Origin: a phage
DNA length: 64,000 bases
Sequence record: PZ534534.1
Reading direction: 5' to 3' (one strand)
Under the pieces are notes generated by a model that saw nothing but the letters and a program-made list of their open reading frames with translations, made no database searches and was not told the DNA's origin. Shown here piece after piece: positions 27,151 through 51,726 of the stretch. Position 1 is the first letter of the stretch. Each line of letters starts with the position of its first letter. The translations under genes were made by a program, and so were the position numbers.

Positions 27151-27154
27151 CATA

Positions 27155-27175: not shown

Positions 27176-27185
27176 AGGAGAAAGA

Positions 27186-31676: not shown

Positions 31677-31677
31677 G

Positions 31678-32229
31678 ATGATCAGAGCGCCATTAGATAA
31701 TTTATTTCTTGAAAAGCTGGAGCTTGATGGTGTTGAGATCTTAATTGCTGCAAAGCTGGAGCTACCGACAGGAACTGTCAGGGTGTGCTCAGGCACTGGT
31801 GTTGTAGTAATTGAGGGGCAACATTTTATAGGGATAGGTGGATCAGCAACGTTAACTGCTGTGTCTGAGAAAGATGCCACCAACTTCGGATCTGTGGTAG
31901 CGACATTGAACGGGTTTGATCCTAAGTATGTGGGTGATCTGCTGAAGACGGAGTATTCTGGTTGTCGTGCCACGTTGTACATTACCGCTATGGAGAATGG
32001 TCTGCCTGTTACAACTAATGGCTTGTTTGACGGCCTTATAACAGATATGGCTATTCAGACAGGCGAGAATAGTGCTTTGTCCATATCCATCTCCTCCATC
32101 TTCAACAGCTGGTTAAGAGGTTTTCCTTATCGGTACACGGAGGAAAGCCACAGCTCAAGAAACGATAACGACAGATTTTTTAAATATGTGGATCAGGTGG
32201 CGAGCCGCCCGATCATTTGGGAGGTTTAA
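31678..32229 (+). CDS. minor tail protein (lambda L-like position)
   Basis: ATG at 31678 with GAGGAT RBS (ORF-track TTG start at 31663). Confidence 0.45.
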   Translation: MIRAPLDNLFLEKLELDGVEILIAAKLELPTGTVRVCSGTGVVVIEGQHFIGIGGSATLTAVSEKDATNFGSVVATLNGFDPKYVGDLLKTEYSGCRATLYITAMENGLPVTTNGLFDGLITDMAIQTGENSALSISISSIFNSWLRGFPYRYTEESHSSRNDNDRFFKYVDQVASRPIIWEV

Positions 32230-32654
32230 TGAGCACACATCCTCGTTTAGTGGATTGGCAAGAAAGATTGTGGAAAGTGTTTGACGAAGAGGCCACCATA
32301 CCTTTTGAATGGGGATTCCACGATTGTTGCACCTTTGCGGCTAAGTGTGTTGATGCCCAATACGGAACAGATTTTCTTTCTAACTTTGAAGGAACGTATA
32401 AAACAGAGTTGGAAAGCAAAAGATGGTGCATGCTTCGTTTCAAAACCACACACCTGCCTACTATTTTTGATCTCTTTATGACTCGGCTGGATACTCCTAA
32501 ACAGGCTCAGCGTGGAGATATTGTCATTTTCGAAGGTCTGAACGGGCTCACCGCTGGTGTGTTCTGGAACAACCAGATTTGGGCTAAAGGTGATAAAGGG
32601 GTCTTTATGTTCGACATGAAAGATTCTATCGTTGTTGATGTCTGGAGGTATTAA
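32229..32654 (+). CDS. minor tail protein, putative NlpC/P60-like (lambda K-like position)
   Basis: ATG at 32229 with GGGAGG RBS; conserved Cys/His (FHDCCTFAAKC) consistent with a papain-like peptidase domain. Confidence 0.45.
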   Translation: MSTHPRLVDWQERLWKVFDEEATIPFEWGFHDCCTFAAKCVDAQYGTDFLSNFEGTYKTELESKRWCMLRFKTTHLPTIFDLFMTRLDTPKQAQRGDIVIFEGLNGLTAGVFWNNQIWAKGDKGVFMFDMKDSIVVDVWRY

Positions 32655-36493: not shown

Positions 36494-36502
36494 CCTTTAA
36501 AG

Positions 36503-36528
36503 CCCCGCTTCGGCGGGGTTTATTTTTA
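36503..36528 (+). terminator. rho-independent terminator (CGCTTCGGCG family)
   Basis: Perfect hairpin CCCCGCttcgGCGGGG followed by TTTATTTTTAT. Confidence 0.75.
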
Positions 36529-38089: not shown

Positions 38090-38100
38090 GGCGGCGAGAT

Positions 38101-38787
38101 ATGGCAGAGATTAAGTCGGATGTTAACCACATCCACACTCTGCCAGATTTTGTTCAGGGAGGTCTTGACTACCTGCCTGGAGATTTTCTGGCTGAGAAGG
38201 TTAATTTAGTCACATTCTTAACCGTATACCTTAAAAGGTTGGAGGATGTTGATAAGATGCTGGTAGGTTTGGCTGAAGGAAGATTGCTTAACAATGCCAG
38301 CGGAAGATACCTTGACGAAGTTGGTAATCAACTTGGTATTCTTAGGAATGGACTTTCAGATGCTGATTTTCGTGCCACACTAATTATTCAGCAGGCCGCA
38401 GCATCAAGGGGCGGGACTCGCGAAGATGTCATCTCCACCTTGCGACAATTGTTCGGAAGAGACAATTTCGATACGTGGAAAGGAGACAACTTCAGGTTTG
38501 ACATAAATATTAGAAAAACTTGCTTTGACATATTGCAGTCTATCGATCAGATCTTAGATATGCTACCATTACCTTGTCATTTGCGTCTTACAGAATCGCA
38601 AGGGCAAGCTTTTGGTTTTGAAGGGGACTCTACAGCTCTTGGCTTCGGATCAGTGTGGGAAGAAAACCAATTCGGAGTTGGTGGGCTGGCTACTTTGCTG
38701 TATGTTCCTGACGTAAGACCTGATTGGGACACCACAACCATTTATTGTGAAAGTATTACAGTAAACGCAACTAGACAGGAGGGTTAA
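38101..38787 (+). CDS. baseplate wedge protein (P2 gpI / Mu gp48-like, putative)
   Basis: 228 aa immediately after baseplate J-like gene, conserved gene order. Confidence 0.45.
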   Translation: MAEIKSDVNHIHTLPDFVQGGLDYLPGDFLAEKVNLVTFLTVYLKRLEDVDKMLVGLAEGRLLNNASGRYLDEVGNQLGILRNGLSDADFRATLIIQQAAASRGGTREDVISTLRQLFGRDNFDTWKGDNFRFDINIRKTCFDILQSIDQILDMLPLPCHLRLTESQGQAFGFEGDSTALGFGSVWEENQFGVGGLATLLYVPDVRPDWDTTTIYCESITVNATRQEG

Positions 38788-40859
38788 TGGCAACAGCTAT
38801 TTTTAAACCTTACCGTGATTACTCTACAATGGCTGCACGGTTTCATTACCGCACAGTTCAGGATACTGCCGTTCCTGGTAGGGATTATAATCATGTTGAG
38901 GGTGATGTAACTATCCCAATTGGGGCAACCAGTATTGAGATCCCAGTGGAAATTGTTGACAAATTACCCAACAGGTTGCCAAGAAGCTTCTTTATGGAGT
39001 TTTCATCAAAATCTCAAGGGGTGATGATTGGAACACAAAGGGCGAAATGTACAATAGTTTCAGATGAGAATCTTGACAGGATATCTTGGGATACTGTTGA
39101 GGAGAGAATGTTTCACCCAAGGTATTGGGTTACAACTACTCAGCAGACTGAAAGTACCTGTATTGTTGCAGATAACAACTGTTGTATTAACCGTTTAGTG
39201 TCAAGAACATATGGAGGTATGGCTGGGTGCATTTGGGAAACAGTTGACAAGTATGACCATTTCGGTATTGGGTTTGATGATCACTATGAGATGAGAAACA
39301 CCAAGCTTTGGTTCAGAATGTCAATAACCAATGCCAGCAACTTCTCCACCCCTGAAAAGATGATTATGACTGTAGACCTTGTTGATGGCACAATCATCTA
39401 TGTTCCTTTAGCTCAATATGCTGTCAGCATCTCAGAGGATAAGAATGTTGCAGAGATTCATATTGATTTCGAGGACTGCGTCGGGATGGATCAGAACAAC
39501 AACATGATGGGTGTTGATCCTCGACAGGTGAGAAGGATTTTAATACCGCTTATGCCTAAAGACTGGGTAAGTAATAGCACAGACCCGAGAACGGAAAATG
39601 TAGAGTGTGAGTTGCGCCTAGATCTGCTCCAGCCAGACACAGGCTGGAAAATGATGCAACTTAACAATATTCAGGTTAAAGAGCACGACGTTGGGATCTG
39701 CACCGCATATGACGATATGTGGAACGTATCTCCTTTAAGGGTGTTGAACAATATCAAGCGTCTGGGCTATACCGGAACCATAAACCATTATGTTGGTATG
39801 AGTCATTATTATGACTACACATGGTCAGGAACCCAATGGTCTATAAACAGAACAGGGGCGCTAAACGCTGCAGCTTATAAATGGCATGATGATTTTATGT
39901 ACAATGCCAAACGACATAACTTCGACGTTATGCAATCTGTAAGTTTTGAGCTTTTCAGCGATGCCTGCCCGTTGGAATGGACCCAAAGAGACTGGAACGA
40001 TAACTACGCTAAAACAGGGTATACACCCTGTAGCTACCTCCTGTCTCCAACCATTGAAGAGGGTATGAATTTCCTTACTGCAGTATTTAAGAATTTTGCA
40101 TCAGCCGCTATGAGAAACAACCTGCCAGTGATTATGCAGGTTGGTGAACCGTGGTGGTGGTACAATACCGATACTCGTAGACCTTGTATTTATGATTACC
40201 CTACAAAGCAGGCGTTTTATGATGAGACAGGTGAGTATGCATTAGATATTGGGACTATTGACGATCCTAAAACTGGCGGTGTTTACGACAAGTATGTAGC
40301 ATTTTGTCGTGGTAAGCTTGGCGCTCGTATTGCGGCCATTTCAAAGGCAATAAAGGCACACGCTGCATCAGCTCAGATGACAGCTCTGCTGTTTTTCCCA
40401 ACCATTATGGAAACAGAGCTTACGCAAAAGCTGAACCTTGCTGACCAATATAAAAAAGAAGCAGGTGCTCTTGATTTCTTCTGCACCGAGTGCTACGATT
40501 GGGTGATGCAGGGAGGTATTGAAAAGGCAAAAGAGTCTGTAAACATACCTATCGTTAAGTTAGGTTGGCAACCGTCTGAAATACAATACCTTGCAGGGTT
40601 CGTTCCTAGTAAAGAGCTTGCTCCGGTATATGGCTACGACCCAACCAGGAATTACCAAGAATTTTTATGGAGATGTATCTGCGGAAACATGGCAACCATA
40701 GAGTATAGATACCCTGAGGTAAAACAGTATGTGTGGGCATACCCGCAAGTAATGTCTGACAGCATCACTGTTACAGCCAGAGATTCTACCGTGCTTCATA
40801 TGGGGCAGGTTGCTCTGAAAGGGTATGTAGAAGATGTTGTCCCTCCAGACTTCTCATAA
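38787..40859 (+). CDS. tail fibre/spike protein with N-terminal Calx-beta-like domain and putative glycosidase-like C-terminal domain
   Basis: N-terminal pattern DYNHVEGDVTIPIGATSIEIPVEIVDKLPN resembles Calx-beta; Trp-rich C-terminal region (QVGEPWWWYNTD). Confidence 0.4.
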   Translation: MATAIFKPYRDYSTMAARFHYRTVQDTAVPGRDYNHVEGDVTIPIGATSIEIPVEIVDKLPNRLPRSFFMEFSSKSQGVMIGTQRAKCTIVSDENLDRISWDTVEERMFHPRYWVTTTQQTESTCIVADNNCCINRLVSRTYGGMAGCIWETVDKYDHFGIGFDDHYEMRNTKLWFRMSITNASNFSTPEKMIMTVDLVDGTIIYVPLAQYAVSISEDKNVAEIHIDFEDCVGMDQNNNMMGVDPRQVRRILIPLMPKDWVSNSTDPRTENVECELRLDLLQPDTGWKMMQLNNIQVKEHDVGICTAYDDMWNVSPLRVLNNIKRLGYTGTINHYVGMSHYYDYTWSGTQWSINRTGALNAAAYKWHDDFMYNAKRHNFDVMQSVSFELFSDACPLEWTQRDWNDNYAKTGYTPCSYLLSPTIEEGMNFLTAVFKNFASAAMRNNLPVIMQVGEPWWWYNTDTRRPCIYDYPTKQAFYDETGEYALDIGTIDDPKTGGVYDKYVAFCRGKLGARIAAISKAIKAHAASAQMTALLFFPTIMETELTQKLNLADQYKKEAGALDFFCTECYDWVMQGGIEKAKESVNIPIVKLGWQPSEIQYLAGFVPSKELAPVYGYDPTRNYQEFLWRCICGNMATIEYRYPEVKQYVWAYPQVMSDSITVTARDSTVLHMGQVALKGYVEDVVPPDFS

Positions 40860-40871
40860 TCAGGAGATAAA

Positions 40872-41912
40872 ATGTCAAAACCTAGTTTTCCATTAGAGAT
40901 TTGGGCAGAGGAGGATCAGGTTCTGCCTAACACCCACAGACAGAACAGGCTACGCCCGATTGATGATTTGTGGAGAAAAGGTTGGGATCTTGGTCAAAAG
41001 CCATCCTGTGAAGAACTTAACTATATTTTCAATATGCTCGGAACTTGGGCAAAATACATTGCTGACGAGCAGATCCCCGCTCAAGAAGGCCGTTATCTGG
41101 TACGTGATAATAACTTGAGCGATCTTTTGAACATCCCTGTTGCCCGTAGAAACCTTGGGATTATCACTAAGGAAGAGGCAGACGCCAGGTATGTAAAAGT
41201 TACAGGTGATACAATGACAGGCCCCTTGGGGTTGCAACGTATCAACTTTAAAGCTGCCGAGACAGATAAGGCTTGGATAGAGACAACTATTGGCCCAGAT
41301 AAGACAACTCTCGACTTTGGGTTAAGTGATAATACCGGGTCGTTTGATGATGGTGGTACATCTACAGTAGATGCGTTTCGTTGGAGATTCCAGCCAACTC
41401 AGCCGGATATTAATCCAGAGTTCACTTTGATGTACCTTAACGCGATCACGGCTAATCGTGCGCTGTTGAAAGTGGTAGGCAATGTTGAAGTTGTCGATAA
41501 CATGAGGTGCAATAACCTTACTATCAGCAATACAGCAACATTCACCAACTGTAATGTGGCTAGTCAGTTGACGGCTGGGTCAGTATATGTTAATGGTGGT
41601 GCAAGTTGTGACAGTATGGTTGTAAGAAGCCAGCACTGTGTTGTCGGTAACAGAAATGTGGTGCGCTCCGTGAATGGAGTGACGGCTAACGGTAACGGTG
41701 ATGTAACGATCACTATCCCGCAGACAGGTGTGCAAGACATCAGAATCGGTGCAAGACTTGTGGACGGCGTTTCTGAATCTCCAATCCGCAACGGCTACGT
41801 TGTCACAGGCTGGCATTTCGGTGACAAAAAAGAGATGCGTGGTTCAACCTACTGGGCAGGACCTTTACAAAAACTTGTAAATGGTCAATGGATCACTGTT
41901 AATTATGCATAG
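40872..41912 (+). CDS. tail fibre protein (paralogue A)
   Basis: 346 aa; paralogous to 42927..43970 (same N-terminal PLEIWA.EDQVL and C-terminal QKLVNGQWIT..YA ends); followed by a Tfa chaperone gene. Confidence 0.6.
   Translation: MSKPSFPLEIWAEEDQVLPNTHRQNRLRPIDDLWRKGWDLGQKPSCEELNYIFNMLGTWAKYIADEQIPAQEGRYLVRDNNLSDLLNIPVARRNLGIITKEEADARYVKVTGDTMTGPLGLQRINFKAAETDKAWIETTIGPDKTTLDFGLSDNTGSFDDGGTSTVDAFRWRFQPTQPDINPEFTLMYLNAITANRALLKVVGNVEVVDNMRCNNLTISNTATFTNCNVASQLTAGSVYVNGGASCDSMVVRSQHCVVGNRNVVRSVNGVTANGNGDVTITIPQTGVQDIRIGARLVDGVSESPIRNGYVVTGWHFGDKKEMRGSTYWAGPLQKLVNGQWITVNYA
41868..41897 (+). repeat. 30-bp direct repeat copy 1 (3' end of fibre paralogue A)
   Basis: CAAAAACTTGTAAATGGTCAATGGATCACT identical to 43926..43955. 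Confidence 0.9.
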
Positions 41913-41926
41913 ATCGGAGGACTAGC

Positions 41927-42511
41927 ATGAAAATACTTCAAGAGTTTAAACTTTACCAACCGGGATCTGGCGAATACTACTCCAACAAGGAAACCAAGGA
42001 GCTGACCCCTCAAGAGGTCGAGGATTACACCGCATACACTGGGTATTTTTTACGTAATGATGATGGTGATTGGTATGTGCAGTCACGAACATTACGACAA
42101 GAAAATCCAGGGTGTATCTTCCTACTTGTTGACGAGAAGGGAATTCTTAAGACATCTACAGAAGAACCTGATGCCTTATGGCCTGCTCCAGGTCTTCGTG
42201 TGGTTATCGCCAAAAAAGAAGAGGTACCAGAAAACATTATGCTTCACCACGACGCTTTGCGTTTAGTTGGTGATGAATTTGTCACAGACAATGAATTCTT
42301 TGTTCAACAGGCAGAGGGTGTCATAGAGACAGAACTTGCTTGGGCTACTGCTAGAATTGGTGCCTATCAAGACATGATTGACCTTGAATATGATCTTACT
42401 GATGACCAGAAACGTAACATCAGAGATTTGAAAATGTACAGGGTAAAACTTCTTGAAATAGATACATCTAAAGCCCCTGACATTTTCTTCCCGGAGCGAC
42501 CTACCCTCTAA
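41927..42511 (+). CDS. tail fibre assembly protein (Tfa chaperone)
   Basis: C-terminal block DQKRNIRDLKMYRVKLLEIDTSKAPDIFFPERP matches the conserved Tfa C-terminal signature (W..YR..L..vD.s.AP.I.WP..P). Confidence 0.7.
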   Translation: MKILQEFKLYQPGSGEYYSNKETKELTPQEVEDYTAYTGYFLRNDDGDWYVQSRTLRQENPGCIFLLVDEKGILKTSTEEPDALWPAPGLRVVIAKKEEVPENIMLHHDALRLVGDEFVTDNEFFVQQAEGVIETELAWATARIGAYQDMIDLEYDLTDDQKRNIRDLKMYRVKLLEIDTSKAPDIFFPERPTL

Positions 42512-42522
42512 GAGGAGGTGTT

Positions 42523-42837
42523 GTGGAGTTGGATTTGGCGGCATTGTACGGTATCTGCATGGGTACCGTTGTCCCGATCTGTGTATGGGCTTTCAACCAG
42601 TGGCACACCAAATGGAAAGGCATTTCCAAGAGGTTGGATGAGCTGGAGAAAGACCTCATCTTAGTGAAAAACAGTATGGTTACAAAAGATAGACTTGATT
42701 CCGTTATCGAGACTCGGTTAAGCAAGCTAGAGGCCGATATTAACGACCTTAAGCAGGATGTCAGGACAGATGTCTCCGGCATCCGAGCTGATGTACAAAA
42801 GATTTTGCACATGCTCGTAGAGCATAGTAAAAGGTAA
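42523..42837 (+). CDS. small membrane protein (single TM helix plus coiled coil) embedded in the fibre locus
   Basis: GTG start with AAGAGGAGG RBS; TM segment LAALYGICMGTVVPICVWAF; own terminator downstream. Confidence 0.5.
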   Translation: MELDLAALYGICMGTVVPICVWAFNQWHTKWKGISKRLDELEKDLILVKNSMVTKDRLDSVIETRLSKLEADINDLKQDVRTDVSGIRADVQKILHMLVEHSKR

Positions 42838-42846
42838 ACAAAGGTC

Positions 42847-42880
42847 AGAACGGAAAGGACTCCGTTCTTGCATTTTGTTC
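42847..42880 (+). terminator. rho-independent terminator
   Basis: Hairpin AGAACGGAaaggacTCCGTTCT followed by TGCATTTTGTTC. Confidence 0.55.
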
Positions 42881-42896
42881 TCTAAAGTGTTAAAAT
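42868..42896 (+). promoter_or_regulatory. sigma70-like promoter (TTGCAT-17-TAAAAT) for the second fibre cassette
   Basis: Hexamers with 17-nt spacer; overlaps the terminator tail. Confidence 0.45.
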
Positions 42897-42926
42897 AGTC
42901 CTAAGGAATTTTCTCAGGAGAACGTG

Positions 42927-43970
42927 ATGACTAAACCAGTTATCCCTCTTGATATTTGGGCCAATCAGGATGTTGTGCTTGAAAATACGGGAGAGTTGAA
43001 TAAATCTCAACCAAAAAAAGAAGAGAGATTGAAAGGTTGGGATATGACACAAAGAATGGCATGTGAAGTTGTTAACTTTGAACTTCACATGCTTTCTGCG
43101 TGGTTGAAGCATTTAACAGAAGATGTTGTCCCAGGATGGGATAATAGATTCTTAAGGGTCACTAATAATCTAGCAGACGTTCCAGACAAAGCTGCTGCAC
43201 GTCAAGTTCTCAATGTATACTCACCTGAAGAAATGGACGATCTATATGTTGACAAGTCTGGAGACATAATGACTCAGACTCAAACTTTAGGTCTTCAAAG
43301 AATCGAGTTTGCATCTGCGTCAACAGACAGTGCGGCAATATATACCACCATAACTCCAGACAAGACGACGATGGATTTCTGGATTATGGACAACATCGGT
43401 GGTGCTGACGGCACAGACCTTGATGATCCTTCTCACCAAATAGATGGGTTCCGTTGGAGATTTCAACCTTCTGGTGGGCAGCCTGTGTTTTCAGCTATGA
43501 AGCTCAATGCTATAACTGCCAACCGTGCAAGACTGGCTATCCAAGGAAATCTTGAATGCAACGATGCAAAAAGTTCCTCTGCAAATGCCAATGCGGTCAC
43601 GATACCAAGAGCCACTGTTAATGGACAACAATCCTGCGGAAGCGCTCAAATAGGTGGAAGAGTTGATTGTAACGATGAAACCGTCAGGGGCCAATATGCA
43701 ACAGTTGGTGGAAGAAACGTGGTCCGCAGGGTAAATGGTAACGGCGCAGACAGTAGCGGTAACCTTACTATCCCTATGCCTAGCAGAGGGGTTGATGATG
43801 TAAGGATAGCAAACCGTTTTAAAACCACCTACAGAGAGTCAAGAGTCTACCCTGGACATGTGATGTGCTCTGGTAACTACGCTTATAAACACCCTTATCA
43901 AGGTGATTACTGGACAGGTGCTATCCAAAAACTTGTAAATGGTCAATGGATCACTATATCTTATGCTTAA
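42927..43970 (+). CDS. tail fibre protein (paralogue B)
   Basis: 348 aa; ATG at 42927 with AGGAGAA RBS; paralogous to 40872..41912. Confidence 0.6.
   Translation: MTKPVIPLDIWANQDVVLENTGELNKSQPKKEERLKGWDMTQRMACEVVNFELHMLSAWLKHLTEDVVPGWDNRFLRVTNNLADVPDKAAARQVLNVYSPEEMDDLYVDKSGDIMTQTQTLGLQRIEFASASTDSAAIYTTITPDKTTMDFWIMDNIGGADGTDLDDPSHQIDGFRWRFQPSGGQPVFSAMKLNAITANRARLAIQGNLECNDAKSSSANANAVTIPRATVNGQQSCGSAQIGGRVDCNDETVRGQYATVGGRNVVRRVNGNGADSSGNLTIPMPSRGVDDVRIANRFKTTYRESRVYPGHVMCSGNYAYKHPYQGDYWTGAIQKLVNGQWITISYA
43926..43955 (+). repeat. 30-bp direct repeat copy 2 (3' end of fibre paralogue B)
   Basis: Identical to 41868..41897. Confidence 0.9.
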
Positions 43971-43981
43971 AAAGAGGGTAA

Positions 43982-44248
43982 ATGAAACTAACTCAGTTTT
44001 TATGGGGACTGGTTGCGGCATCTGATGACCCTACGAAAGTGTCCCAATCTAAGCTATGGTCGAACATAGGCATGGCGGTGATGACTGGGGGGTTTATTCA
44101 TATGGGGGATAATGATACGCTTCCTGAATGGTATGCGTGGATATACGCGCCTTCAGTAGCTTGCCCCCAGCTTATTAGCAAATTCATCTCGCTCCGGTGG
44201 GGTTGCCAGCACCCTGACCACGTTAAAAACGAAGAGCAAAAAGCTTAA
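43982..44248 (+). CDS. hypothetical small protein downstream of fibre paralogue B
   Basis: 88 aa with hydrophobic N-terminal segment; occupies the position where a fibre chaperone would be expected but lacks the Tfa signature. Confidence 0.35.
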   Translation: MKLTQFLWGLVAASDDPTKVSQSKLWSNIGMAVMTGGFIHMGDNDTLPEWYAWIYAPSVACPQLISKFISLRWGCQHPDHVKNEEQKA

Positions 44249-44257
44249 GGAGAAATC

Positions 44258-46003
44258 ATGGCGCAAGACATGACAAGCTTTGAGCAGGCGGTAGATCAAG
44301 TAATTGTTGATTCTGAACGTTTGCACCTGATTGTCAACGGTAACGCTGTGGATGAAGTTGTCGTAGAGGATGGGACCACCATCCCTACGGTACGAAAAGC
44401 CATGCTTGACACCCTTTATTTTAAAACGCCACCGATCCCTTGGGCGTATGGTGCATCCACAACAGTTTTTAACCAGCTGTACGAGTTTAAAGGGGACACA
44501 GGCCCTCAGTGGTGGTACGCTCCCGCAGCATCAAAATCTAACCCGGTTAGAATGCCAGCAGATCCTTCACAATCTCCAAACTGGAGATTATATACCGATT
44601 CTGCAGTAATGGCAAAATACTACGCAAAACTTAACAGTCCGAGGTTCGAAGGTGACCCGCGAGTACCTACGCCTCCAATGGACGACAAATCCGAGTCTAT
44701 AGCAAACACAGAGTTTGTTGTTGACTATGTGGATAGCATATTTGAAGCCATGGAGGGAATGAAAGTTACTGTAGGATCTTTGGTGGTAAAAGGTCTTACA
44801 GAACTTGCTAACACTATAGTTGGTGGCACACTCACCTTACATGGGCCTGTTAATGGAGCAGATTCTACTGCACGCTTCAGGAACCTAATCCTCACGGCAA
44901 ATACTTCTACACTTACTTTTGCGTGGAGTGATCCTAAGCATGCAGACTGGAGAAGCACAGAGCTGCAACCTCATGAAGTGTCCACCCACAGGGTTATAGC
45001 TGACACTATAACTTCTGGGAAACCAGTGGCTAATAATAACGATGTGCATTTTGATGGTCTAGGTAATAACTTTTTTGACTACGTGTACATTCGTGGTAAT
45101 GCCATGAAGGCAGCAACCGAACCGACATTGCAGGTAGATGGAACCACCAGGGTTAAGAACCTTGAGGTGACAGGCACTGTTACAGGGATAACCTACTCTG
45201 TCGATGGCACCATGATTTACCCTAGCTATATTGAAAGCACGGGGGACGCATTAATAAATGGTGATTTAGAAGTTGGCGGATCTGTAGTTATTCGAGGTAC
45301 AGCCTCTATCCAAAACATAGCTCTGAATACCCTAAGAGTCAATGAGCGTGCAACTTTTGAAGGGGAAGGGCTTACAGCCAACAAAGGTGTAATTACCGAG
45401 CTGACAACCACTACTTTAACTGCAACAACTGCAAACTCTGAAAACTGCAACGTTACCAGAAACTTGCAGGTAAATGGAGATGTTAGTTTAAACGCAGCAG
45501 GGACGGGCACCACCTACCTTCACAACCTTGAAATATCCGGCACAGTGACTGGGTGGCTGCCAGACTTCTCTAATGTCAACTTTGTTTGTAATGGCATTAA
45601 CTCCAGTGGCAAGATAACCACCTCTCAAGAAATTGAGGCGGGTAAAACCATTACTGCCCCTACTTTCCACGCAGGAAAGGTAGATTTTGATTTAGAGGAG
45701 GTTGACGCGTCCAGTGGGACATGGACACCTAACGGGCAGGCCAGTATGTATGTTGTCCACGCGAAAGGGGATTTTACAATAGGACAATGGCCTGGTACAT
45801 CAGCGGAAGATAAACCTTATCCATTCACTGCGGTTATCTATGTCATTCAGGATGCTGTAGGTCACAACGTGACTTTGCACGATAAGTATGCTATCCTGTC
45901 GGCAACGCCTGTTATTAATAACAAGGCTAATAGTGTTACCTTGCTGCAATTAACATATTGTGGTGTTGGTGATATCGTAGACGTAGTAATTGCACAACGT
46001 TAA
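44258..46003 (+). CDS. tail fibre/tailspike protein
   Basis: 581 aa, Thr/Gly/Asn-rich beta-rich sequence with repeated ...TG.V.G... segments typical of fibre shafts. Confidence 0.5.
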   Translation: MAQDMTSFEQAVDQVIVDSERLHLIVNGNAVDEVVVEDGTTIPTVRKAMLDTLYFKTPPIPWAYGASTTVFNQLYEFKGDTGPQWWYAPAASKSNPVRMPADPSQSPNWRLYTDSAVMAKYYAKLNSPRFEGDPRVPTPPMDDKSESIANTEFVVDYVDSIFEAMEGMKVTVGSLVVKGLTELANTIVGGTLTLHGPVNGADSTARFRNLILTANTSTLTFAWSDPKHADWRSTELQPHEVSTHRVIADTITSGKPVANNNDVHFDGLGNNFFDYVYIRGNAMKAATEPTLQVDGTTRVKNLEVTGTVTGITYSVDGTMIYPSYIESTGDALINGDLEVGGSVVIRGTASIQNIALNTLRVNERATFEGEGLTANKGVITELTTTTLTATTANSENCNVTRNLQVNGDVSLNAAGTGTTYLHNLEISGTVTGWLPDFSNVNFVCNGINSSGKITTSQEIEAGKTITAPTFHAGKVDFDLEEVDASSGTWTPNGQASMYVVHAKGDFTIGQWPGTSAEDKPYPFTAVIYVIQDAVGHNVTLHDKYAILSATPVINNKANSVTLLQLTYCGVGDIVDVVIAQR

Positions 46004-46012
46004 TATATATCT

Positions 46013-46040
46013 AACCGCTCCTGACGGGGCGGTTTTCTTA
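46013..46040 (+). terminator. putative terminator
   Basis: Hairpin AACCGCtcctgacgggGCGGTT followed by TTCTTATCT. Confidence 0.4.
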
Positions 46041-46053
46041 TCTGGAGAACACA

Positions 46054-49000
46054 ATGCTTCCAATCCCTTTGCTAAAACTTGGTCGTCATTTCCTCGATAA
46101 GAGGGGTGGAATTAAGGAACTTGCTGTTCTGTCATACCCAATAGACAACAGTGATGGTACAAGCAACACAGTATCCTATGTAAATAGCTTAGCTATACTT
46201 TTTGATGATGGTCAGCTTAATATTACTGGCTATAATAGGTTCGGAGAGTGTCGGACTGGAGATCTTGATACAATAAACTATCCTAATGAGGCAGCTTGGA
46301 ACGTAGACCATGTTTGGAGAGCTGACCGTGCATTTGTAATCCGCACATTCGATAATAAATTTTTCTATATTGGTTGCACAGCTGGTCTTATCGGATCGGA
46401 GGCAGCAGGTGGAAACGATGTTTGTGTCAGAGAGTGGACACCTTTGCCGGAACAGATCGTAACAGGGTTGCATTTGGACACCCATCCTGAGAGACTTGTT
46501 GAAGTAATGGGTGGCGTAAACAATACCGTGTGGGTAATTGCTGCACCAGAGGCTGATGGTATGCTTCACCTGTACGGCTCTGGCAATAATACTTACGGCT
46601 CTCTTCATGTTGACAAAAGTCAACACGCTACTCCAGTTAAGATCGGTGAAACATCTGAAAGTCCAGAGACAGGTCCTTGGAAAAATCCAAGAATTAATTG
46701 TGAAGTTCATGACAACTCGGTTATTTTTGGTGGTCCTAACGGATTCTGGATTGCAGGTTACGACTTTCTGAGAAATAACAGTAGAAACGACCTTGTTTGG
46801 CCTCCTGTGCAGATTACTCGTAACGATTTGAGGGGCATTCCTGCAGATGAGGAGTGGAAAGGGTTTATGTGTGGTCCTAACGGGGCAGTAATTGCTACAC
46901 AGAGGATGCATAGACCCGATGACCAGCAGCTTGTTAACGTATTTTATGGTCAAAACATTTGGGGAGATGATACATGGCGGGAACTGAATATCACCTACAC
47001 CCATGAGGTAATGATGGCTCGTGGGTACGGCACAAGTGGCATTTTCTTCAATAATGGCACTAAGCAGTATCGTGGGTTCTCTCGCAACTTATGTAATGAT
47101 ATTGGTGCACAATCTGCAAACAATAGTCCTAGGGCCGATTTTATCCACTATCAAGCTCTTGCTACAGCTAAATATGTTGAGCAACGCCTGCCAGTCAGCT
47201 GGACAGAGAGTGTTTATTTCCAAGGCATCCACAGAGAAGGTTTCTTAGGTACCTTTACTGTTGTTAATGGTAAACTTTGGTGGTCAGGTATCCCAAGGGG
47301 AAGTTTTACAGGATCTAATAACCTCTTTGGCGGCAGACTTAACAGCCAAGGGTTCACAGAGATTCCGGAGAATTGGTATAAAAATGTCCCGGTAGACAGT
47401 TGGGGTGTTGAGGATATTTTCGACGTTAACGGTGTTAGCAGCGTTAGCAATATTTACATTGGTGACACGGTCAAGATGAAATTGAAGCCTCAGCCAGAGG
47501 GGGCTACGTTCATTATTGACAAGATTGAACTGGTAAATGCTGCAGGCACGGTTGTTACAGATGCAAATTACCAATTCTCCACCAACTGGAACCACGGAGG
47601 GGCCAATGAAGTTGTTGTCACCCAGTATAACAGAAATGTTAACAGACGTGGCCTGTACTCTGTAAAAATAACCTATCATGACAAGCATGGCACAGGCAGA
47701 ACCCATACGACAAGGACTTTGAACTGGAACACCATAGTTCCTGCGTACCCGTCTGATGGTAAATGGCATACTGTCGGTAGAAACAAACAGTTCCATGTTA
47801 ATGATACTGTATACTTTGGGCTGAATGGGACCCAGCCTGCAGTAGAAGGGGATACATCGTATATGGTCAGACTCCACAGAATGGATGCTGGATCAGTCAC
47901 TTATGATGTGACCCAAGAGATCTACGATCAAAGACGCGCCACGTATGACAATATTGTGAAAACACAAGCCTTGTGGGAGTTCAATCCTAATGGCAAGGGT
48001 GGTAAAATGTTGCAGGTTAATGAGCAGAACGGAACGTCGTTGACTGTTCACGAACACCCAGACCCTTGGCCTGATCCTGGAAAACCTCACCCAGGAGCTC
48101 GTACACTGAAAATTGTCAGCCATGATGCAGGGTATTTCGGAATACGCTGGGAAGCTACAGTAAGATATGTCGACGGGACAACAAACAACATAGGGATTAC
48201 ACTTGGCGGCACTAGTGAAGATAACTCGCTGAAAATTGCCTACACGCCCAGAGGTATCTCTATTGATAATATGGATGTTGTTCGCAATGGTTACGGCGAT
48301 GTGAATGTCAAAGTTACTCTTGGCGAACATCTTGGTGGGGAAAGGATCATCATGTATGCCTTTGATCATGATCCACGCACCAATGGAACTTATGCAAATC
48401 AGGCATGGAGTTACCTGATAAATGCACCTGAGCCGAATACTAAAGAGTTCTACTATGGTATGAAGCGAGATGTGTGCAAGAAAACAGGAACACATGACTG
48501 GATTGCTATCTGCGTTAAAGATGAGCGCACAGCTTGGGATGAGCCTGTTAACAGATGGTTCATAGGTATTCCTACCAGAAGTGATAAGTATGTCGCAGAA
48601 TATATTGTATGCATGGGCGGTACCAACCTAAACATGTGTTGGAACGAAGATGTAAACAAATACTCTGATTATGACTATATGAGGGATTACTCTTGTAATT
48701 TGTGGTTTAACCAAACTACAGGTTACCCTCCAAGACAGGCGAGAGTAAACCCTGCAATCTTCACAGACACGCAGGTTTTCTTGACAAAACAGGCCAACGA
48801 GGTCCAGACCTTCAAGAACAAATACGACCCTAATAAGTGGTTCTATAACTGCTATGGGGCATTTTTCTGGGGACCTGGAGAATTACCTGGTGGTGGCTCT
48901 TGTTTTGAGGCTGCAACTTACGCCAGTGACAGATTTATGGGCCAGGTCAAGAAATACAAGATAATTCCAGGGCCTGAAACTTTAGGCAACGCTGTCGACC

Positions 49001-51681
49001 CCTATATCATCATGAGTGATCTAAGATCGAACATGGATGGAACATCCATATCTATGCAAGTTCCGGTAACAAACGGATACAAGCGTGTTGTGATGATCAT
49101 TAAGTGCGATCTGATAGGTAAGCAAGTTCTTGCAGAGAACGGAACTTCCACCCACCTATTTGAGACTGCTCTGCACTATCAGTTTGCTGATTCACCTTTT
49201 GCAGGGGATAAGAGAATATCTGACACAGACGCTGTGCGATGCAAGAAATTTATGCTAGGTGGTGGGTGGTGGTGGTATGAATTTGACTTAACAGACAAAT
49301 TCACCGACACGTCTAAAGTAGTGACGGGGCTTCGTCTAGACCTTGGCGAAAACATGCACAAAAGTGTTTGTGATGGCACCTACGGTGACCCAACAATCTA
49401 CTTAAAGTATGTCTCTTTTGAGCACCCAGAGGATGTTGTTTATGGTCCAAAACTGAGACTGTTTGGCAATTGGATTGCTAAAGACAGGGTAGGTATGGGC
49501 AAGAAGGTAAGAGGCTTCTTAATAGATGCCGGTACAGAGGACATGCTAGTCAATGCAGTGTGGCCTGAATTACCTGGGACTCAGTGGAACAACTCAGCCA
49601 AATCTATAAACTGGTTCAATATCCACAGGGCTATGTGGACAACCAACTGTTACCTGTGGAAAGAGCTGAATGACGGCGCTTTCGGGTTCACAGGCGGCAG
49701 AAGAATGGCAATCATTTGCTGGACAACGTTGCAAAGATGTTATGACCATGACTACGAGATTGGAGGTAGGGCATGGAAAAATATTAGGGATAGAATCATA
49801 ACCAACTTTGCAGATCCTAACGGTGGTGGAGCGTATGGCTTCGACTGCAGCAGGCTCATCCATTTGAACGGATCCTCTGCCTACAAGAAAGAAGGTTACT
49901 CTGGGTCTATGATAGAATGGGGCCTGGTGAAAGATGCTCGCGTGCTGATGGGTCAACAACTTGCTGCTGCAATAGGTCCTAATGCAGTGCAATCTGTTAA
50001 ACCTGCGTGGTTTGATATCCCATTGTGGTCATCCGGTACACCAGGAACTGCTGCAATCAACCCTACCACGGGGGATCTGGAAATCTCTTGGGAGGACTTG
50101 AAGCAGGTTGGAGGCTGGGATAAAACAGGGTATCAGGTCCAGTGGTGGAGGGCTGATGGATCTTTAGCCGCTGATGAGTTTGTTAAGGACAATTTCTACA
50201 CCATGTCCTCTGCAAAAGCACAGGAATTGTTCGGTCAGGCAACTCCGTCAACGATCACCATGTCTATGTGCTGTAAAGACAACAGGACTGGAGCTTTGGG
50301 GCCAAGGGTTGCTAAAGTTTTCTCAGGTATTAAATGGAATCTACCTGTCCAAAGTATTTCATGGAAGCAAATAGGTGATAACAAGCTGCTGGTTACCCCT
50401 GCCTGTCAGTTCAACGCAACTCTTAACGTTGATCCTGCTGTTGCGGCAAACTCAGCTAAAGCTTCTGACTTCTCTGTGTCTAACACTGCTATGGCAGATG
50501 TGAGGAAGATTGACACGCTGAACGCCAGAATTACCTGTAAAAACACTTATGGCACATTCCAAATCATCAACAACTTCACAGATGCTGATTCTAAGGTAGT
50601 GAGGACAGCAAGCCAGACTCTGAGTTTAGGAACTCTGGCCTATGCGGCACTGATCACCGAACAGTCGGCAACACTCCAAGGAGGCGGTGTAGGCAAGTCC
50701 ATTGCAACACCTGTGTGGAAGCCAAATGAGTGGGTTGTGTTTGATTTGACTGTGGACTTCTCCAGCGATAATAACTGGACATGGGTAAGGAATTGTTTGT
50801 CACAGTTGATGGGCGGTCCAAGCTCCGTTAGTGATAGTCACGACTCTACTGACCCGAGTGTGTTCCAGGTAGGTAAAACTCACCCAGAGACTGGAGAAAC
50901 GTTGCCTGACAGGAAGTATGCGTTGGTTTGCATCTCTTACGGGAAGGCAGATGTCACATTCTCAGGGACACACACTTATAACGGAACTTACAACTTCTCA
51001 AGGAAGTATAGTCTCAAAGCAGGGAACATTATAGACGAGGTCGGTGTGCTGTATAATCCGGGCAACGGCATAGGGATTGTGGGCGGTAAACTGCAGATGC
51101 AGGAACCTTCTATCACCCCTTCCAACGTATCCGGGATTAGAAAGACTTGGGAAAGTAGTAATACCAACATTGCAACAGTGGATGCCACCACAGGGCTGGT
51201 AACATTTAAAGCTACTGGGAATGTCACCATAAAGTTTGTAGTTAGAGATGATGCAGGCCGCAAAACGTCTTCAACATCGTTTACTGTCAGACAGATGGCA
51301 CCTCAGTGGTTTATTTGGGAAGGAAATCCTCTTGACGGGGCTTACCCTAGACCTGCAGGAACGTCCAATATGAGGGTCTTTACCGGTCCGGTCATGAACA
51401 ATCCGACCACAACCACCAACCCTACATTTTTTGGTGCTTACATACCTGAAATTATTGGCCTACCAAGGAACCAGATACAACTGCTTTTCGGAGCAGGTGT
51501 TGATGGTCTAGCCACTTTTGGGTACAGTGACAACATTGATGCAGCCAGAAGCTCGGGTTGGATTGGATTTAAGTTTCAGTGGAACCCTGGTGGTAGAACA
51601 TTAGGTGTTGCAAGCATAGGTGTTATGCTACCTGGTAACCAGCAATACCATCTCGAAGCTTATACAAACTTCCCTAGTTAA
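46054..51681 (+). CDS. giant tail-associated protein (1875 aa) with RCC1-like repeats and Ig-like (Big_2-like) domain
   Basis: N-terminal repeats of GxNxxGxxG type (GYNRFGECRTGD, GSGNNTYGSLH); C-terminal segment NIATVDATTGLVTFKATGNVTIKFVV resembles bacterial Ig-like domain group 2. Confidence 0.55.
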   Translation: MLPIPLLKLGRHFLDKRGGIKELAVLSYPIDNSDGTSNTVSYVNSLAILFDDGQLNITGYNRFGECRTGDLDTINYPNEAAWNVDHVWRADRAFVIRTFDNKFFYIGCTAGLIGSEAAGGNDVCVREWTPLPEQIVTGLHLDTHPERLVEVMGGVNNTVWVIAAPEADGMLHLYGSGNNTYGSLHVDKSQHATPVKIGETSESPETGPWKNPRINCEVHDNSVIFGGPNGFWIAGYDFLRNNSRNDLVWPPVQITRNDLRGIPADEEWKGFMCGPNGAVIATQRMHRPDDQQLVNVFYGQNIWGDDTWRELNITYTHEVMMARGYGTSGIFFNNGTKQYRGFSRNLCNDIGAQSANNSPRADFIHYQALATAKYVEQRLPVSWTESVYFQGIHREGFLGTFTVVNGKLWWSGIPRGSFTGSNNLFGGRLNSQGFTEIPENWYKNVPVDSWGVEDIFDVNGVSSVSNIYIGDTVKMKLKPQPEGATFIIDKIELVNAAGTVVTDANYQFSTNWNHGGANEVVVTQYNRNVNRRGLYSVKITYHDKHGTGRTHTTRTLNWNTIVPAYPSDGKWHTVGRNKQFHVNDTVYFGLNGTQPAVEGDTSYMVRLHRMDAGSVTYDVTQEIYDQRRATYDNIVKTQALWEFNPNGKGGKMLQVNEQNGTSLTVHEHPDPWPDPGKPHPGARTLKIVSHDAGYFGIRWEATVRYVDGTTNNIGITLGGTSEDNSLKIAYTPRGISIDNMDVVRNGYGDVNVKVTLGEHLGGERIIMYAFDHDPRTNGTYANQAWSYLINAPEPNTKEFYYGMKRDVCKKTGTHDWIAICVKDERTAWDEPVNRWFIGIPTRSDKYVAEYIVCMGGTNLNMCWNEDVNKYSDYDYMRDYSCNLWFNQTTGYPPRQARVNPAIFTDTQVFLTKQANEVQTFKNKYDPNKWFYNCYGAFFWGPGELPGGGSCFEAATYASDRFMGQVKKYKIIPGPETLGNAVDPYIIMSDLRSNMDGTSISMQVPVTNGYKRVVMIIKCDLIGKQVLAENGTSTHLFETALHYQFADSPFAGDKRISDTDAVRCKKFMLGGGWWWYEFDLTDKFTDTSKVVTGLRLDLGENMHKSVCDGTYGDPTIYLKYVSFEHPEDVVYGPKLRLFGNWIAKDRVGMGKKVRGFLIDAGTEDMLVNAVWPELPGTQWNNSAKSINWFNIHRAMWTTNCYLWKELNDGAFGFTGGRRMAIICWTTLQRCYDHDYEIGGRAWKNIRDRIITNFADPNGGGAYGFDCSRLIHLNGSSAYKKEGYSGSMIEWGLVKDARVLMGQQLAAAIGPNAVQSVKPAWFDIPLWSSGTPGTAAINPTTGDLEISWEDLKQVGGWDKTGYQVQWWRADGSLAADEFVKDNFYTMSSAKAQELFGQATPSTITMSMCCKDNRTGALGPRVAKVFSGIKWNLPVQSISWKQIGDNKLLVTPACQFNATLNVDPAVAANSAKASDFSVSNTAMADVRKIDTLNARITCKNTYGTFQIINNFTDADSKVVRTASQTLSLGTLAYAALITEQSATLQGGGVGKSIATPVWKPNEWVVFDLTVDFSSDNNWTWVRNCLSQLMGGPSSVSDSHDSTDPSVFQVGKTHPETGETLPDRKYALVCISYGKADVTFSGTHTYNGTYNFSRKYSLKAGNIIDEVGVLYNPGNGIGIVGGKLQMQEPSITPSNVSGIRKTWESSNTNIATVDATTGLVTFKATGNVTIKFVVRDDAGRKTSSTSFTVRQMAPQWFIWEGNPLDGAYPRPAGTSNMRVFTGPVMNNPTTTTNPTFFGAYIPEIIGLPRNQIQLLFGAGVDGLATFGYSDNIDAARSSGWIGFKFQWNPGGRTLGVASIGVMLPGNQQYHLEAYTNFPS

Positions 51682-51691: not shown

Positions 51692-51726
51692 ATAAAAAGG
51701 GGCCAGACGGCCCCTTTCTTTTTATA
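51692..51726. terminator. bidirectional rho-independent terminator between convergent transcription units
   Basis: Perfect hairpin GGGGCCagacGGCCCC flanked by an A-run upstream and a T-run downstream. Confidence 0.75.

What the first reader, a model, noticed from the sequence alone, without database searches (positions are those of the whole stretch)
46054..51681. 1875-aa giant protein terminating the late operon
The largest ORF in the window combines RCC1-like beta-propeller repeats at the N-terminus with an Ig-like domain near the C-terminus and ends at the bidirectional terminator. Its size and domain mix suggest an additional adhesin or fibre, or an ejected internal protein; its role cannot be decided from sequence.
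Basis: partly seen in the sequence, partly recalled or inferred. Interest (0 to 1): 0.5.

Follow-up and report, generated by a model that had tools for sequence, protein, structure and literature searches.

The report
Giant accessory adhesin of rV5-like phage
The 1875-residue gene is the already catalogued "gp27" of rV5-like coliphages, most likely a dispensable surface adhesin that helps the phage on some wild hosts but not on lab E. coli; its exact place on the virion is still unproven.

Summary
The ORF (46054-51681, + strand, 1875 aa, 208 kDa) is real and is the largest in the window. It is the last gene of the tail/fibre region and ends at a bidirectional terminator.

The window is a Vequintavirus. 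The gene is 99.4% identical to DrSchubert bas50_0041 and is the orthologue of rV5 gp27 and MaxBurger bas54_0041, annotated there as "lateral tail fiber protein with intimin domain" or "Ig-like domain protein".

Both domain claims hold:
- Big_2 Ig-like domain at aa 1682-1733, above Pfam's threshold.
- RCC1-like propeller at aa 1-441. This rests on transitive homology, not on a direct Pfam hit.

Between them lies a region (aa 761-1440) with no detectable relatives outside this family among 1.84 billion proteins. The last 125 aa occur as two discrete cassettes across 114 genomes.

Published transposon data show the orthologue is dispensable on K-12 but 4.7-fold depleted on clinical isolate CFE311. 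Virion mass-spectrometry evidence is weak.

Best reading: a non-essential, host-dependent accessory adhesin anchored by its conserved N-terminus. No feature of a canonical trimeric fibre was detected. Nothing supports an ejected internal protein.

The gene is already known; its mechanism remains open.

The parts
46013..46034 (+). Terminator-like hairpin with T-run, between the upstream fibre gene (stop at 46003) and the giant gene
   Evidence: Scan hit with 9 pairs. Folds at -16.7 kcal/mol, z -3.8. A hairpin with a T-run sits at the same position in ESCO5 (Phapecoctavirus) and 4MG (Seunavirus).
46044..46047 (+). Shine-Dalgarno GGAG, 7 nt before the ATG
   Evidence: Sequence read directly.
46054..51681 (+). 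CDS of the 1875-aa, 208-kDa protein, orthologue of rV5 gp27 / bas54_0041 / bas50_0041
   Evidence: Matches PHROG 15684 full length at 4431 bits.
46054..47376 (+). aa 1-441: RCC1-like beta-propeller module. It is the most conserved part; aa 1-207 are shared with the last tail-operon gene of other genera.
47398..48333 (+). aa ~449-760: beta-sandwich (Ig-like) domains. Only aa ~449-565 are modelled with moderate confidence.
   Evidence: AF2 pLDDT 65-83 for aa 449-565. Foldseek hits to Ig-like domains. Weak PF16403 hit in homologue P0003.
48334..50043 (+). aa 761-1330: conserved central region with no detectable relatives outside the family. It contains a confidently modelled beta-sandwich (aa ~966-1125, nt 48949-49428) and a Trp/Glu-rich conserved stretch (aa ~1160-1290).
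   Evidence: A profile of aa 761-1440 searched against 1.84 billion representatives found only 3 own-family hits. Nothing in PDB sequences. AF2 confidence. Invariant residues.
50050..51333 (+). aa ~1333-1760: array of Ig-like beta-sandwich domains. It includes the most variable stretch (aa 1434-1585, nt 50353-50808) and Big_2 (aa 1682-1733, nt 51097-51252).
   Evidence: AF2 pLDDT 80-92 for aa 1590-1760. Foldseek hits to cadherin, S-layer and phage Ig arrays. Pfam Big_2. Variability.
51304..51678 (+). aa 1751-1875: C-terminal tip cassette, present in two discrete allelic forms
   Evidence: tblastn against 114 genomes: 38 at >=95% identity, 76 at 61-63%, none in between. Mosaic pattern relative to P0001 and P0002. 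No relatives outside the family.
51696..51717 (.). Bidirectional intrinsic terminator shared with the convergent minus-strand genes

Best explanation
The gene encodes a non-essential, surface-exposed accessory adhesin of the Vequintavirus tail-fibre apparatus.

Proposed mechanism, with what is shown and what is inferred:
1. It is expressed late as its own hairpin-bounded unit at the end of the fibre cluster. The hairpins are shown; attenuated expression and low copy number are inferred.
2. The conserved N-terminal RCC1-like propeller, especially aa 1-207 with the invariant M-x-P-I-P start, anchors the protein to the virion. This is inferred from the conservation pattern. The likeliest dock is the conserved C-terminal head of the upstream essential fibre protein; this is a hypothesis.
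3. The rest projects outward as a chain of independently folding domains: Ig-like sandwiches, a family-specific central region, then a further Ig-like array. Partly shown by modelling.
4. The variable distal Ig region and the swappable 125-aa tip make weak, host-specific contacts with surface glycans (O-antigen or capsule) that are absent from K-12. Adsorption therefore improves on some natural hosts but not in the laboratory. The host-dependent fitness effect is published; the ligand is inferred.

In function it resembles dispensable, adsorption-accelerating fibres such as T5 L-shaped fibres, and Ig-domain decorations such as Hoc. It does not resemble an obligatory receptor-binding fibre.
For: Context:
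- It is the last + strand gene after baseplate, short-fibre and fibre genes.
- The same position and N-terminal module occur in Phapecoctavirus ESCO5 gp226 (890 aa) and Seunavirus 4MG_038 (567 aa), each also carrying Big_2 domains.

Conservation gradient:
- aa 1-450 are 70-100% identical across relatives; aa 1451-1600 drop to 12-24%.
- The tip occurs as two cassettes in 114 genomes and is exchanged independently of the rest of the gene.

Fold:
- The C-terminal half matches strings of Ig-like domains from adhesins, S-layers and phage surface proteins.

Genetics (preprint 10.1101/2025.11.20.689424, supplementary file 9):
- bas54_0041 took insertions at 281 of 336 TA sites and is called non-essential on K-12. 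The upstream bas54_0040 is essential, with 1 of 123 sites hit.
- On clinical isolate CFE311 the mean count falls from 30.9 to 5.8, log2FC -2.23, adjusted p < 1e-5.
- bas54_0041 is the 1875-aa orthologue.

Dispensability in culture:
- The gene is frameshifted or split in DrSchubert, V18, APECc02, ime and others.

Possible dock:
- Only the C-terminal ~105 aa of the upstream fibre are conserved with ESCO5 gp227 (51% identity), next to the conserved N-terminus of this protein.
- Bas49/Bas54 cryo-EM shows unassigned density attached to the head of one fibre class (PMC12143355).

Precedent:
- RCC1-like proteins are virion proteins confirmed by mass spectrometry in Rak2-like phages (PMC5259590).
Against: - Virion presence is not established. 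rV5 MudPIT gave 3 peptides, 9 spectra and 3.1% coverage, all non- or semi-tryptic with poor ranks, in the same tier as gp1 and gp228.
- Bas49/Bas54 cryo-EM located only three of nine annotated fibres.
- Both AF2 models are of low overall confidence (mean pLDDT 47.7 and 53.5). The propeller fold and the 'chain of domains' picture are therefore only partly supported, and the oligomeric state was not tested.
- The upstream fibre's head domain occurs in 385 phage records against 213 for the RCC1 module, so co-occurrence is one-directional.
- The CFE311 effect is partial and comes from one preprint and one strain. A non-adsorption cause (polar or regulatory) is not excluded.
- No ligand is known.
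Confidence: 0.6

Rival explanations
1. It is a canonical trimeric lateral tail fibre, as annotated in the BASEL genomes. On this view it is one of the three lateral fibre sets seen on phi92-like and rV5-like phages, acting as a primary receptor-binding protein for particular hosts.
For: - Annotated 'lateral tail fiber protein with intimin domain'.
- Located in the fibre cluster; conserved N-terminus, variable C-terminus and tip cassettes.
- Host-dependent fitness effect.
Against: - No coiled-coil, beta-helix, intramolecular-chaperone (S74) or fibre-family hit in Pfam, PHROGs, NCBIfam or PDB. The matches are a propeller and Ig-like domains, which usually fold as monomers.
- Depletion on CFE311 is partial (4.7-fold), whereas the bas54_0028-0031 fibre set is completely lost on the same host.
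- In phi92, the AF3 model of gp150 did not fit the fibre II density (PMC13450770).
- Oligomeric state was not tested here.
Confidence: 0.15
2. It is a Hoc-like decoration of the capsid, neck or sheath. Its Ig-like arrays would bind mucus or other environmental glycans, keeping the phage in the gut mucosa rather than acting in adsorption to the cell.
For: - Ig-like arrays resemble Hoc-type proteins and Ig-decorated major head or tail proteins in BFVD.
- Dispensable in culture.
- Source annotations such as 'structural protein with Ig domain'; PHROG 215 is classed under head and packaging.
Against: - The gene sits at the end of the fibre cluster, not in the head module.
- The conserved module is shared with 'tail protein' genes at the same position in other genera.
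- A host-strain-specific fitness effect in liquid culture is not expected from mucus binding.
- The dimorphic tip suggests a bacterial target.
Confidence: 0.1
3. It is not a virion component. It would be a late-expressed protein acting in the infected cell or released at lysis, for example a glycan-acting enzyme in the orphan central region that frees progeny from debris or modifies the cell surface.
For: - Virion mass-spectrometry evidence is very weak, and no density has been assigned in cryo-EM.
- The central region has many invariant Glu/Asp/Trp residues, compatible with a carbohydrate-active site.
- The gene forms its own hairpin-bounded unit.
Against: - No enzyme family was detected by any profile or fold search.
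- The N-terminal module plus variable distal architecture and the tip cassettes are typical of virion-borne host-recognition proteins.
- There is no signal peptide-like N-terminus (sequence).
Confidence: 0.08
4. It is an internal protein packaged in the head and ejected into the host with the DNA.
For: Only its large size and the lack of an assigned location. Nothing specific.
Against: - Ig-like and propeller domains are typical of extracellular or surface proteins.
- The gene lies in the fibre cluster.
- It is non-essential, with a dimorphic distal tip.
- No capsid-targeting or protease-processing signature was seen.
Confidence: 0.03

Closest known systems
rV5 gp27 / MaxBurger bas54_0041 / DrSchubert bas50_0041 (PHROG 15684; 'lateral tail fiber protein with intimin domain', 'Ig-like domain-containing protein')
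   Same: Same gene. It is 99.4% nt identical to DrSchubert and Mangalyan and 90-99% aa identical across about 110 Vequintavirus genomes. Position, length and start/stop are the same. The rV5 gp27 peptides map onto this sequence.
   Different: This copy carries the minority 'type A' C-terminal tip, found in 38 of 114 genomes; rV5 itself has the other type at ~63% identity. Unlike DrSchubert, it is not frameshifted.
Last tail-operon gene of Phapecoctavirus (ESCO5 gp226, 'tail protein', 890 aa) and Seunavirus (4MG_038, 'Ig domain-containing protein', 567 aa)
   Same: Same genomic position, same preceding hairpin, homologous RCC1-like N-terminal module (39% and 30% identity over ~207 aa; hhalign probability 99.7% over ~400 aa), and Big_2 domains after it.
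   Different: They are two to three times shorter. They lack the aa ~450-1600 insert (extra Ig-like domains plus the orphan central region) and have unrelated C-termini.
Ig-like accessory domains on phage surfaces (T4 Hoc; Big_2 on tail and head proteins; Fraser et al. 2006, as cited in PMC5259590)
   Same: Big_2/Ig-like arrays, dispensability in the laboratory, and a presumed weak carbohydrate-binding role (the role rests on established knowledge).
   Different: Here the Ig domains belong to a 208-kDa stand-alone protein with a propeller anchor and a unique central region, encoded in the fibre cluster rather than fused to a capsid or tail-tube protein.
Dispensable adsorption-accelerating fibres (T5 L-shaped fibre pb1, which binds O-antigen; my own knowledge, not tested here)
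   Same: Not needed on a rough K-12 host, beneficial on a natural isolate. This matches the K-12 versus CFE311 pattern of bas54_0041.
   Different: pb1 is a trimeric fibre with an intramolecular chaperone. No such features were detected here.
Intimin (NCBIfam NF033627)
   Same: One Ig-like (Big_2) domain aligns to an intimin Ig repeat.
   Different: 21 bits against a family cut-off of 1400. There is no beta-barrel, LysM or lectin-like domain. The label 'intimin domain' means only 'Big_2 fold'.

Membership tests
rV5 gp27 orthologue group (PHROG 15684) | Full-length similarity and conserved position at the end of the Vequintavirus fibre cluster | tested here: met
   PHROG 15684 matched over aa 1-1874 at 4431 bits. 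108 phage records cover >=80% of the gene at 90-99% nt identity. Same neighbours in DrSchubert and MaxBurger.
RCC1-like beta-propeller (Pfam PF00415 / PF25390) | Profile match above the curated threshold in this protein | tested here: not met
   No RCC1 family listed at E<=1 for the window protein. Close homologues reach only E ~1e-3 on PF25390, far below its cut-off.
RCC1-like beta-propeller (Pfam PF00415 / PF25390) | Homology to proteins that do meet the family threshold (transitive) | tested here: met
   ESCO5 gp226 scores 24.2 bits and 4MG_038 36.9 bits on PF00415 (cut-off 21.7); on PF25390 they reach E 8e-11 and 7e-9. hhalign of aa 1-441 against gp226 aa 1-408 gives probability 99.7%. PHROG 4219 at E 4e-7.
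RCC1-like beta-propeller (Pfam PF00415 / PF25390) | Seven-bladed propeller fold | tested here: inconclusive
   The AF2 model of aa 1-780 has mean pLDDT 47.7 and aa 235-443 fall below 50. Foldseek still gives weak hits to HERC1, HERC2 and UVR8 at E 2e-3 to 6e-3.
Bacterial Ig-like domain group 2 (Pfam PF02368) | Profile match above the gathering score | tested here: met
   34.7 bits against 22.8, aa 1682-1733. AF2 pLDDT is 80-92 in this region.
Intimin (NCBIfam NF033627) | Full-length equivalog score | tested here: not met
   21.4 bits against a cut-off of 1400; only a 39-residue Ig segment aligns.
Trimeric phage lateral tail fibre | Fibre-type folds: coiled coil, triple beta-helix, or a C-terminal intramolecular chaperone or separate chaperone | tested here: not met
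   No such family in Pfam, PHROGs, NCBIfam or PDB searches. Fold hits are Ig arrays. The models are low-confidence, so absence is not proof.
Trimeric phage lateral tail fibre | Conserved N-terminal attachment module with variable or swappable distal end | tested here: met
Trimeric phage lateral tail fibre | Presence in purified virions | tested here: inconclusive
   Published rV5 MudPIT: 3 weak, non-tryptic peptides, 3.1% coverage. No density assigned in Bas49/Bas54 cryo-EM.
Trimeric phage lateral tail fibre | Trimeric stoichiometry | not testable with these tools
Trimeric phage lateral tail fibre | Required for infection of at least some hosts | tested here: inconclusive
   From the literature only. 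Non-essential on K-12; 4.7-fold depleted, not lost, on CFE311.
Hoc-like capsid decoration | Gene in the head module and a capsid-binding domain | tested here: not met
   The gene lies after the baseplate and fibre genes. No Hoc family hit; there is only generic Ig-array similarity.

The most novel reading that the evidence does not exclude
The protein is a single-chain (not trimeric) 208-kDa appendage. Its RCC1-like propeller would clamp onto the conserved C-terminal head of the upstream essential fibre, accounting for the unassigned density seen on that fibre class in Bas49/Bas54 cryo-EM. Its family-restricted central region (aa ~761-1330) would be a new carbohydrate-binding or carbohydrate-cleaving fold. 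If so, rV5-like phages carry a fourth, structurally unprecedented host-recognition device with a two-state swappable tip.
Probability: 0.2. Interest if true: 0.55.

Novelty: already known. Interest (0 to 1): 0.3.

Why it matters
rV5-like phages are among the most commonly isolated coliphages and are candidates for therapy and biocontrol because of their broad host range. Which of their roughly nine 'fibre' genes does what is still unresolved.

This gene is their largest. It is dispensable in the laboratory, yet it matters on at least one clinical isolate and carries a two-allele tip. It is therefore a plausible determinant of host range on natural strains and a possible engineering handle.

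For the genome scan itself the finding is ordinary. It is a correctly spotted but already deposited and annotated gene, and its interpretation as an adhesin or fibre matches existing annotation.

Tried and rejected
1. Structure prediction in two pieces (aa 1-780 and aa 761-1875) with the 16-17 available homologues. Mean pLDDT was 47.7 and 53.5. Only the Ig-like parts and one beta-sandwich are usable, and the propeller and the helical part of the central region are not. Both jobs are spent, so no multimer or domain-wise rerun was possible.

2. Fold searches. PDB and BFVD hits are dominated by generic Ig arrays, with nothing specific for the central region.

3. Sequence and profile searches against PDB with the whole protein, the family profile and the central-region profile. 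Only weak Ig hits or nothing.

4. Word-indexed protein search.
- Full length: 15 family members only.
- N-terminus: 3 fragments.
- Tip: 1 family fragment.

5. Exhaustive HMMER search with the central region: own family only.

6. Search for paralogous modules in the other fibre and baseplate proteins of the window: none by blastp or family HMM.

7. Internal repeats by self-BLAST: none.

8. 'Intimin' membership: rejected.

9. Strict co-occurrence of the upstream fibre head with the RCC1 module: not strict. The head is more widespread, 385 records against 213.

10. Additional virion proteomics for Vequintavirus. The O177 'proteomics' paper contains no mass spectrometry, and the RBPseg supplements are not held.

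11. Literature on RCC1-like phage tail proteins. Only the Rak2-like GAP32 precedent was found.
Full report
**1. Observation**

- The ORF at 46054-51681 (+) exists, starts with ATG seven bases after a GGAG, and encodes 1875 aa (208.4 kDa, pI 6.2).
- It is the longest ORF in the window; the next are 1279 and 1266 aa.
- An open frame of this length cannot arise by chance at 45% GC (about 1e-46 by my estimate). GC content and strand skews match the surrounding + strand late genes.
- The gene is the last + strand gene before a block of minus-strand genes. It ends 15 nt before a hairpin (51696-51717) flanked by an A-run and a T-run.
- A comparable hairpin with a T-run (46013-46034, -16.7 kcal/mol) lies between the preceding gene's stop (46003) and this gene's ribosome-binding site, so the gene is bracketed by terminator-like sites.

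**2. Identity**

- The window is a Vequintavirus (rV5-like myophage). The gene is 99.4% nt identical to Escherichia phages DrSchubert (bas50_0041) and Mangalyan, and 90-99% identical in 108 further records.
- Annotations in those records range from 'hypothetical protein' and 'Ig-like domain-containing protein' to 'lateral tail fiber protein with intimin domain'.
- It matches PHROG 15684 (unknown function) end to end.
- The rV5 orthologue is gp27 (1878 aa, 208 kDa). The three gp27 peptides in the rV5 proteome table map onto this sequence with 0-2 mismatches.
- The MaxBurger orthologue is bas54_0041, also 1875 aa.
- The gene is therefore known and deposited many times. Its function has not been determined biochemically.

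**3. Domain anatomy**

*(a) N-terminus, aa 1-441.*
- Pfam gives no direct hit. PHROG 4219 ('regulator of chromosome condensation') matches aa 42-135 at E 4e-7, and PHROG 11922 ('tail protein') matches aa 41-194 at E 2e-26.
- tblastn shows that aa 1-207 are shared (39% identity) with the last gene of the tail operon in Phapecoctavirus, and more weakly in Seunavirus and in Salmonella and Cronobacter relatives.
- Those shorter positional orthologues (ESCO5 gp226, 890 aa; 4MG_038, 567 aa) do hit Pfam RCC1 above its gathering score, hit the RCC1-like domain model at E 8e-11 and 7e-9, and also carry Big_2 domains.
- hhalign of this family's aa 1-441 against gp226 aa 1-408 gives probability 99.7%.
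- The AF2 model is poor here, but Foldseek still lists the HERC1/HERC2 RCC1-like domains and UVR8.
- Conclusion: the 'RCC1-like propeller' claim is right, by transitive homology.

*(b) aa ~449-760.* Beta-sandwich domains, with moderate confidence only for aa 449-565.

*(c) aa 761-1330/1440.*
- This is a well-conserved region with many invariant Trp, Glu, Asp and Cys residues and no detectable relatives.
- A profile search of 1.84 billion representative proteins returned only three members or fragments of this same family. PDB sequence searches returned nothing.
- AF2 models only a beta-sandwich (aa ~966-1125, pLDDT 70-83) with confidence.

*(d) aa ~1333-1760.*
- A string of Ig-like sandwiches (pLDDT up to 92) that includes Pfam Big_2 at aa 1682-1733, above threshold.
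- Foldseek matches cadherins, NUP210, S-layer proteins and many phage Ig-array proteins, including Hoc-like ones.

*(e) aa 1751-1875.* A small C-terminal domain without outside relatives.

*The 'intimin' label.* It reflects only the Big_2 fold: 21 bits against a cut-off of 1400.

*Negative results.* No coiled coil, beta-helix, chaperone-of-endosialidase or other fibre family was detected. No paralogous module exists in the other fibre proteins of the window.

**4. Evolutionary pattern**

- Only 15 full-length relatives exist in a 5.8-billion-protein collection.
- Conservation is highest in the propeller (70-100%). It is lowest at aa 1451-1600 (12-24% in distant relatives, 36-46% in a 77%-identical one).
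- The last 125 aa behave as a cassette:
  - P0001 is 96-100% identical elsewhere but 50-76% in the tip.
  - P0002 is 77% identical overall but 96-98% in the tip.
  - Among 114 Vequintavirus genomes the tip is either >=95% identical (38 genomes) or 61-63% identical (76 genomes, including rV5), with nothing in between.
- A conserved proximal module, a variable distal region and a recombining tip are the usual signature of host-recognition proteins (established knowledge of phage receptor-binding proteins).

**5. Functional data in the literature**

*Transposon sequencing of MaxBurger (HIDEN-SEQ preprint).*
- The text lists bas54_0041 among fibre genes that tolerate disruption.
- Supplementary file 9 gives 281 of 336 TA sites hit and a 'Non-essential' call. 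The upstream bas54_0040 has 1 of 123 sites hit and is 'Essential'.
- In the K-12 versus clinical-isolate comparison, bas54_0041 drops from a mean of 30.9 to 5.8 reads per site (log2FC -2.23, adjusted p < 1e-5). bas54_0028-0031 are lost completely and 0026/0027 become dispensable.
- Sheets S6 and S7 are identical and both derive from the '311' sample, so the result applies to CFE311.

*Disrupted copies.* Consistent with dispensability in culture, several deposited genomes carry frameshifted or split copies:
- DrSchubert has a 1-nt deletion removing the last ~83 aa.
- V18, APECc02 and EPFV3 align in several pieces.
- ime is split into two ORFs.
- Sequencing errors cannot be excluded.

*Virion presence.*
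- Evidence is weak: 3 non- or semi-tryptic peptides, 9 spectra, 3.1% coverage.
- Cryo-EM of Bas49/Bas54 placed only three of nine annotated fibres, but noted unassigned density attached to the head of one fibre class.
- The LL12 paper notes weak similarity of gp27 to the N-terminus of phi92 gp150. The location of gp150 is still unresolved in the 2026 phi92 structure.

**6. Mechanism proposed**

I favour (confidence 0.6) a non-essential accessory adhesin. It would be anchored by the conserved N-terminal propeller and project a chain of Ig-like and family-specific domains. Its variable end and swappable tip would contact strain-specific surface glycans.

- Shown: the domain content (in part), the conservation gradient, the tip dimorphism and the hairpin bracketing.
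- Published: the host-dependent fitness effect.
- Inferred: virion attachment, monomeric state, the glycan ligand and the docking site.

For the docking site, the only part of the upstream fibre protein conserved between Vequintavirus and Phapecoctavirus is its C-terminal ~105 aa (51% identity). This lies directly next to the conserved N-terminus of this protein, and the two are adjacent wherever both occur in the rows listed. However, that head domain is more widespread than the RCC1 module (385 against 213 records), so this remains a hypothesis.

The conserved hairpin ahead of the gene in three genera suggests reduced read-through and a low copy number. That would fit the weak mass-spectrometry signal.

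**7. Rivals**

| Rival | Confidence | Main point |
|---|---|---|
| Canonical trimeric fibre | 0.15 | Not excluded, because oligomeric state was untestable and the models are poor; no fibre-type fold is detectable and the phenotype is only partial |
| Hoc-like decoration for mucus binding | 0.10 | Fits the Ig arrays, but not the gene position or the strain-specific effect |
| Non-virion late protein or enzyme | 0.08 | Fits the weak proteomics and the conserved acidic and aromatic residues of the orphan region, but has no positive evidence |
| Ejected internal protein | 0.03 | No support |

**8. Verdict**

The gene itself is already known.

What remains of real interest is modest:
- a ~570-aa region without relatives anywhere;
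- an architecture unlike characterised fibres;
- a two-state tip cassette;
- an unresolved virion location.

Interest is 0.3. The most novel reading not excluded is a single-chain propeller-anchored appendage with a new glycan-acting fold, docking on the upstream fibre head. It has probability about 0.2 and interest about 0.55 if true.

Noticed in passing
window 30994-31013, 36500-36521, 46013-46034, 51696-51717 (+ strand): Strong hairpin/T-run sites follow each large fibre gene. They divide the fibre region into four units: 24553-30986, 31086-36493, 36599-46003 and 46054-51681. These units coincide with the behaviour groups of MaxBurger genes in published transposon data: 0026-27 needed on K-12, 0028-31 needed on CFE311, 0032-40 essential, 0041 accessory.
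   Followed up: partly
L001 (DrSchubert) 25374 region; also V18, APECc02, EPFV3, ime, magaca and nomine records: The orthologue is frameshifted or split in several deposited genomes. DrSchubert has a 1-nt deletion at gene position 5374 that removes the last ~83 aa. This may be laboratory loss of a dispensable gene or sequencing error.
   Followed up: partly
window 45686-46000 (C-terminal 105 aa of the upstream fibre protein): This small C-terminal head is found in 385 phage records. They include Klebsiella, Erwinia and Pectobacterium phages, and jumbo phages where it is annotated 'long tail fiber proximal subunit'. It looks like a widely shared fibre module, possibly an adaptor.
   Followed up: partly
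L003 (ESCO5) ~8962-8985; L004 (4MG) ~6960-6990: A hairpin with a T-run sits immediately before the RCC1-Ig gene in Phapecoctavirus and Seunavirus as well. The sequences differ but the position is the same, so the element is conserved in place across three genera.
   Followed up: partly
HIDEN-SEQ preprint 10.1101/2025.11.20.689424, supplementary file 9, sheets S6 and S7: The sheet labelled 'K-12 vs CFE303' contains the same table and command line as 'K-12 vs CFE311' (both use the '311' wig file). The CFE303 result for this gene is therefore not available.
   Followed up: no
GenBank records MG0656xx ('Campylobacter phage', host C. jejuni): Fifteen to twenty records named as Campylobacter phages carry this rV5-like coliphage gene at ~93% nt identity and have coliphage-sized genomes. 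The host labels look doubtful.
   Followed up: no
P0018: A partial protein labelled Eggerthella lenta in NCBI is 96% identical to the N-terminus of this phage protein. This is probably coliphage contamination of that assembly.
   Followed up: no
P0001: The collection lists a precomputed Pfam family PF26918.1 for the 93%-identical homologue. That family is not in the local Pfam copy, so it could not be identified.
   Followed up: no
window 46189-47004, 47284-47877, 47893-48495 (- strand): Three ORFs of 197-271 aa lie antisense inside the giant gene. None is annotated in the related genomes. They are most likely shadow ORFs of the long coding frame.
   Followed up: no
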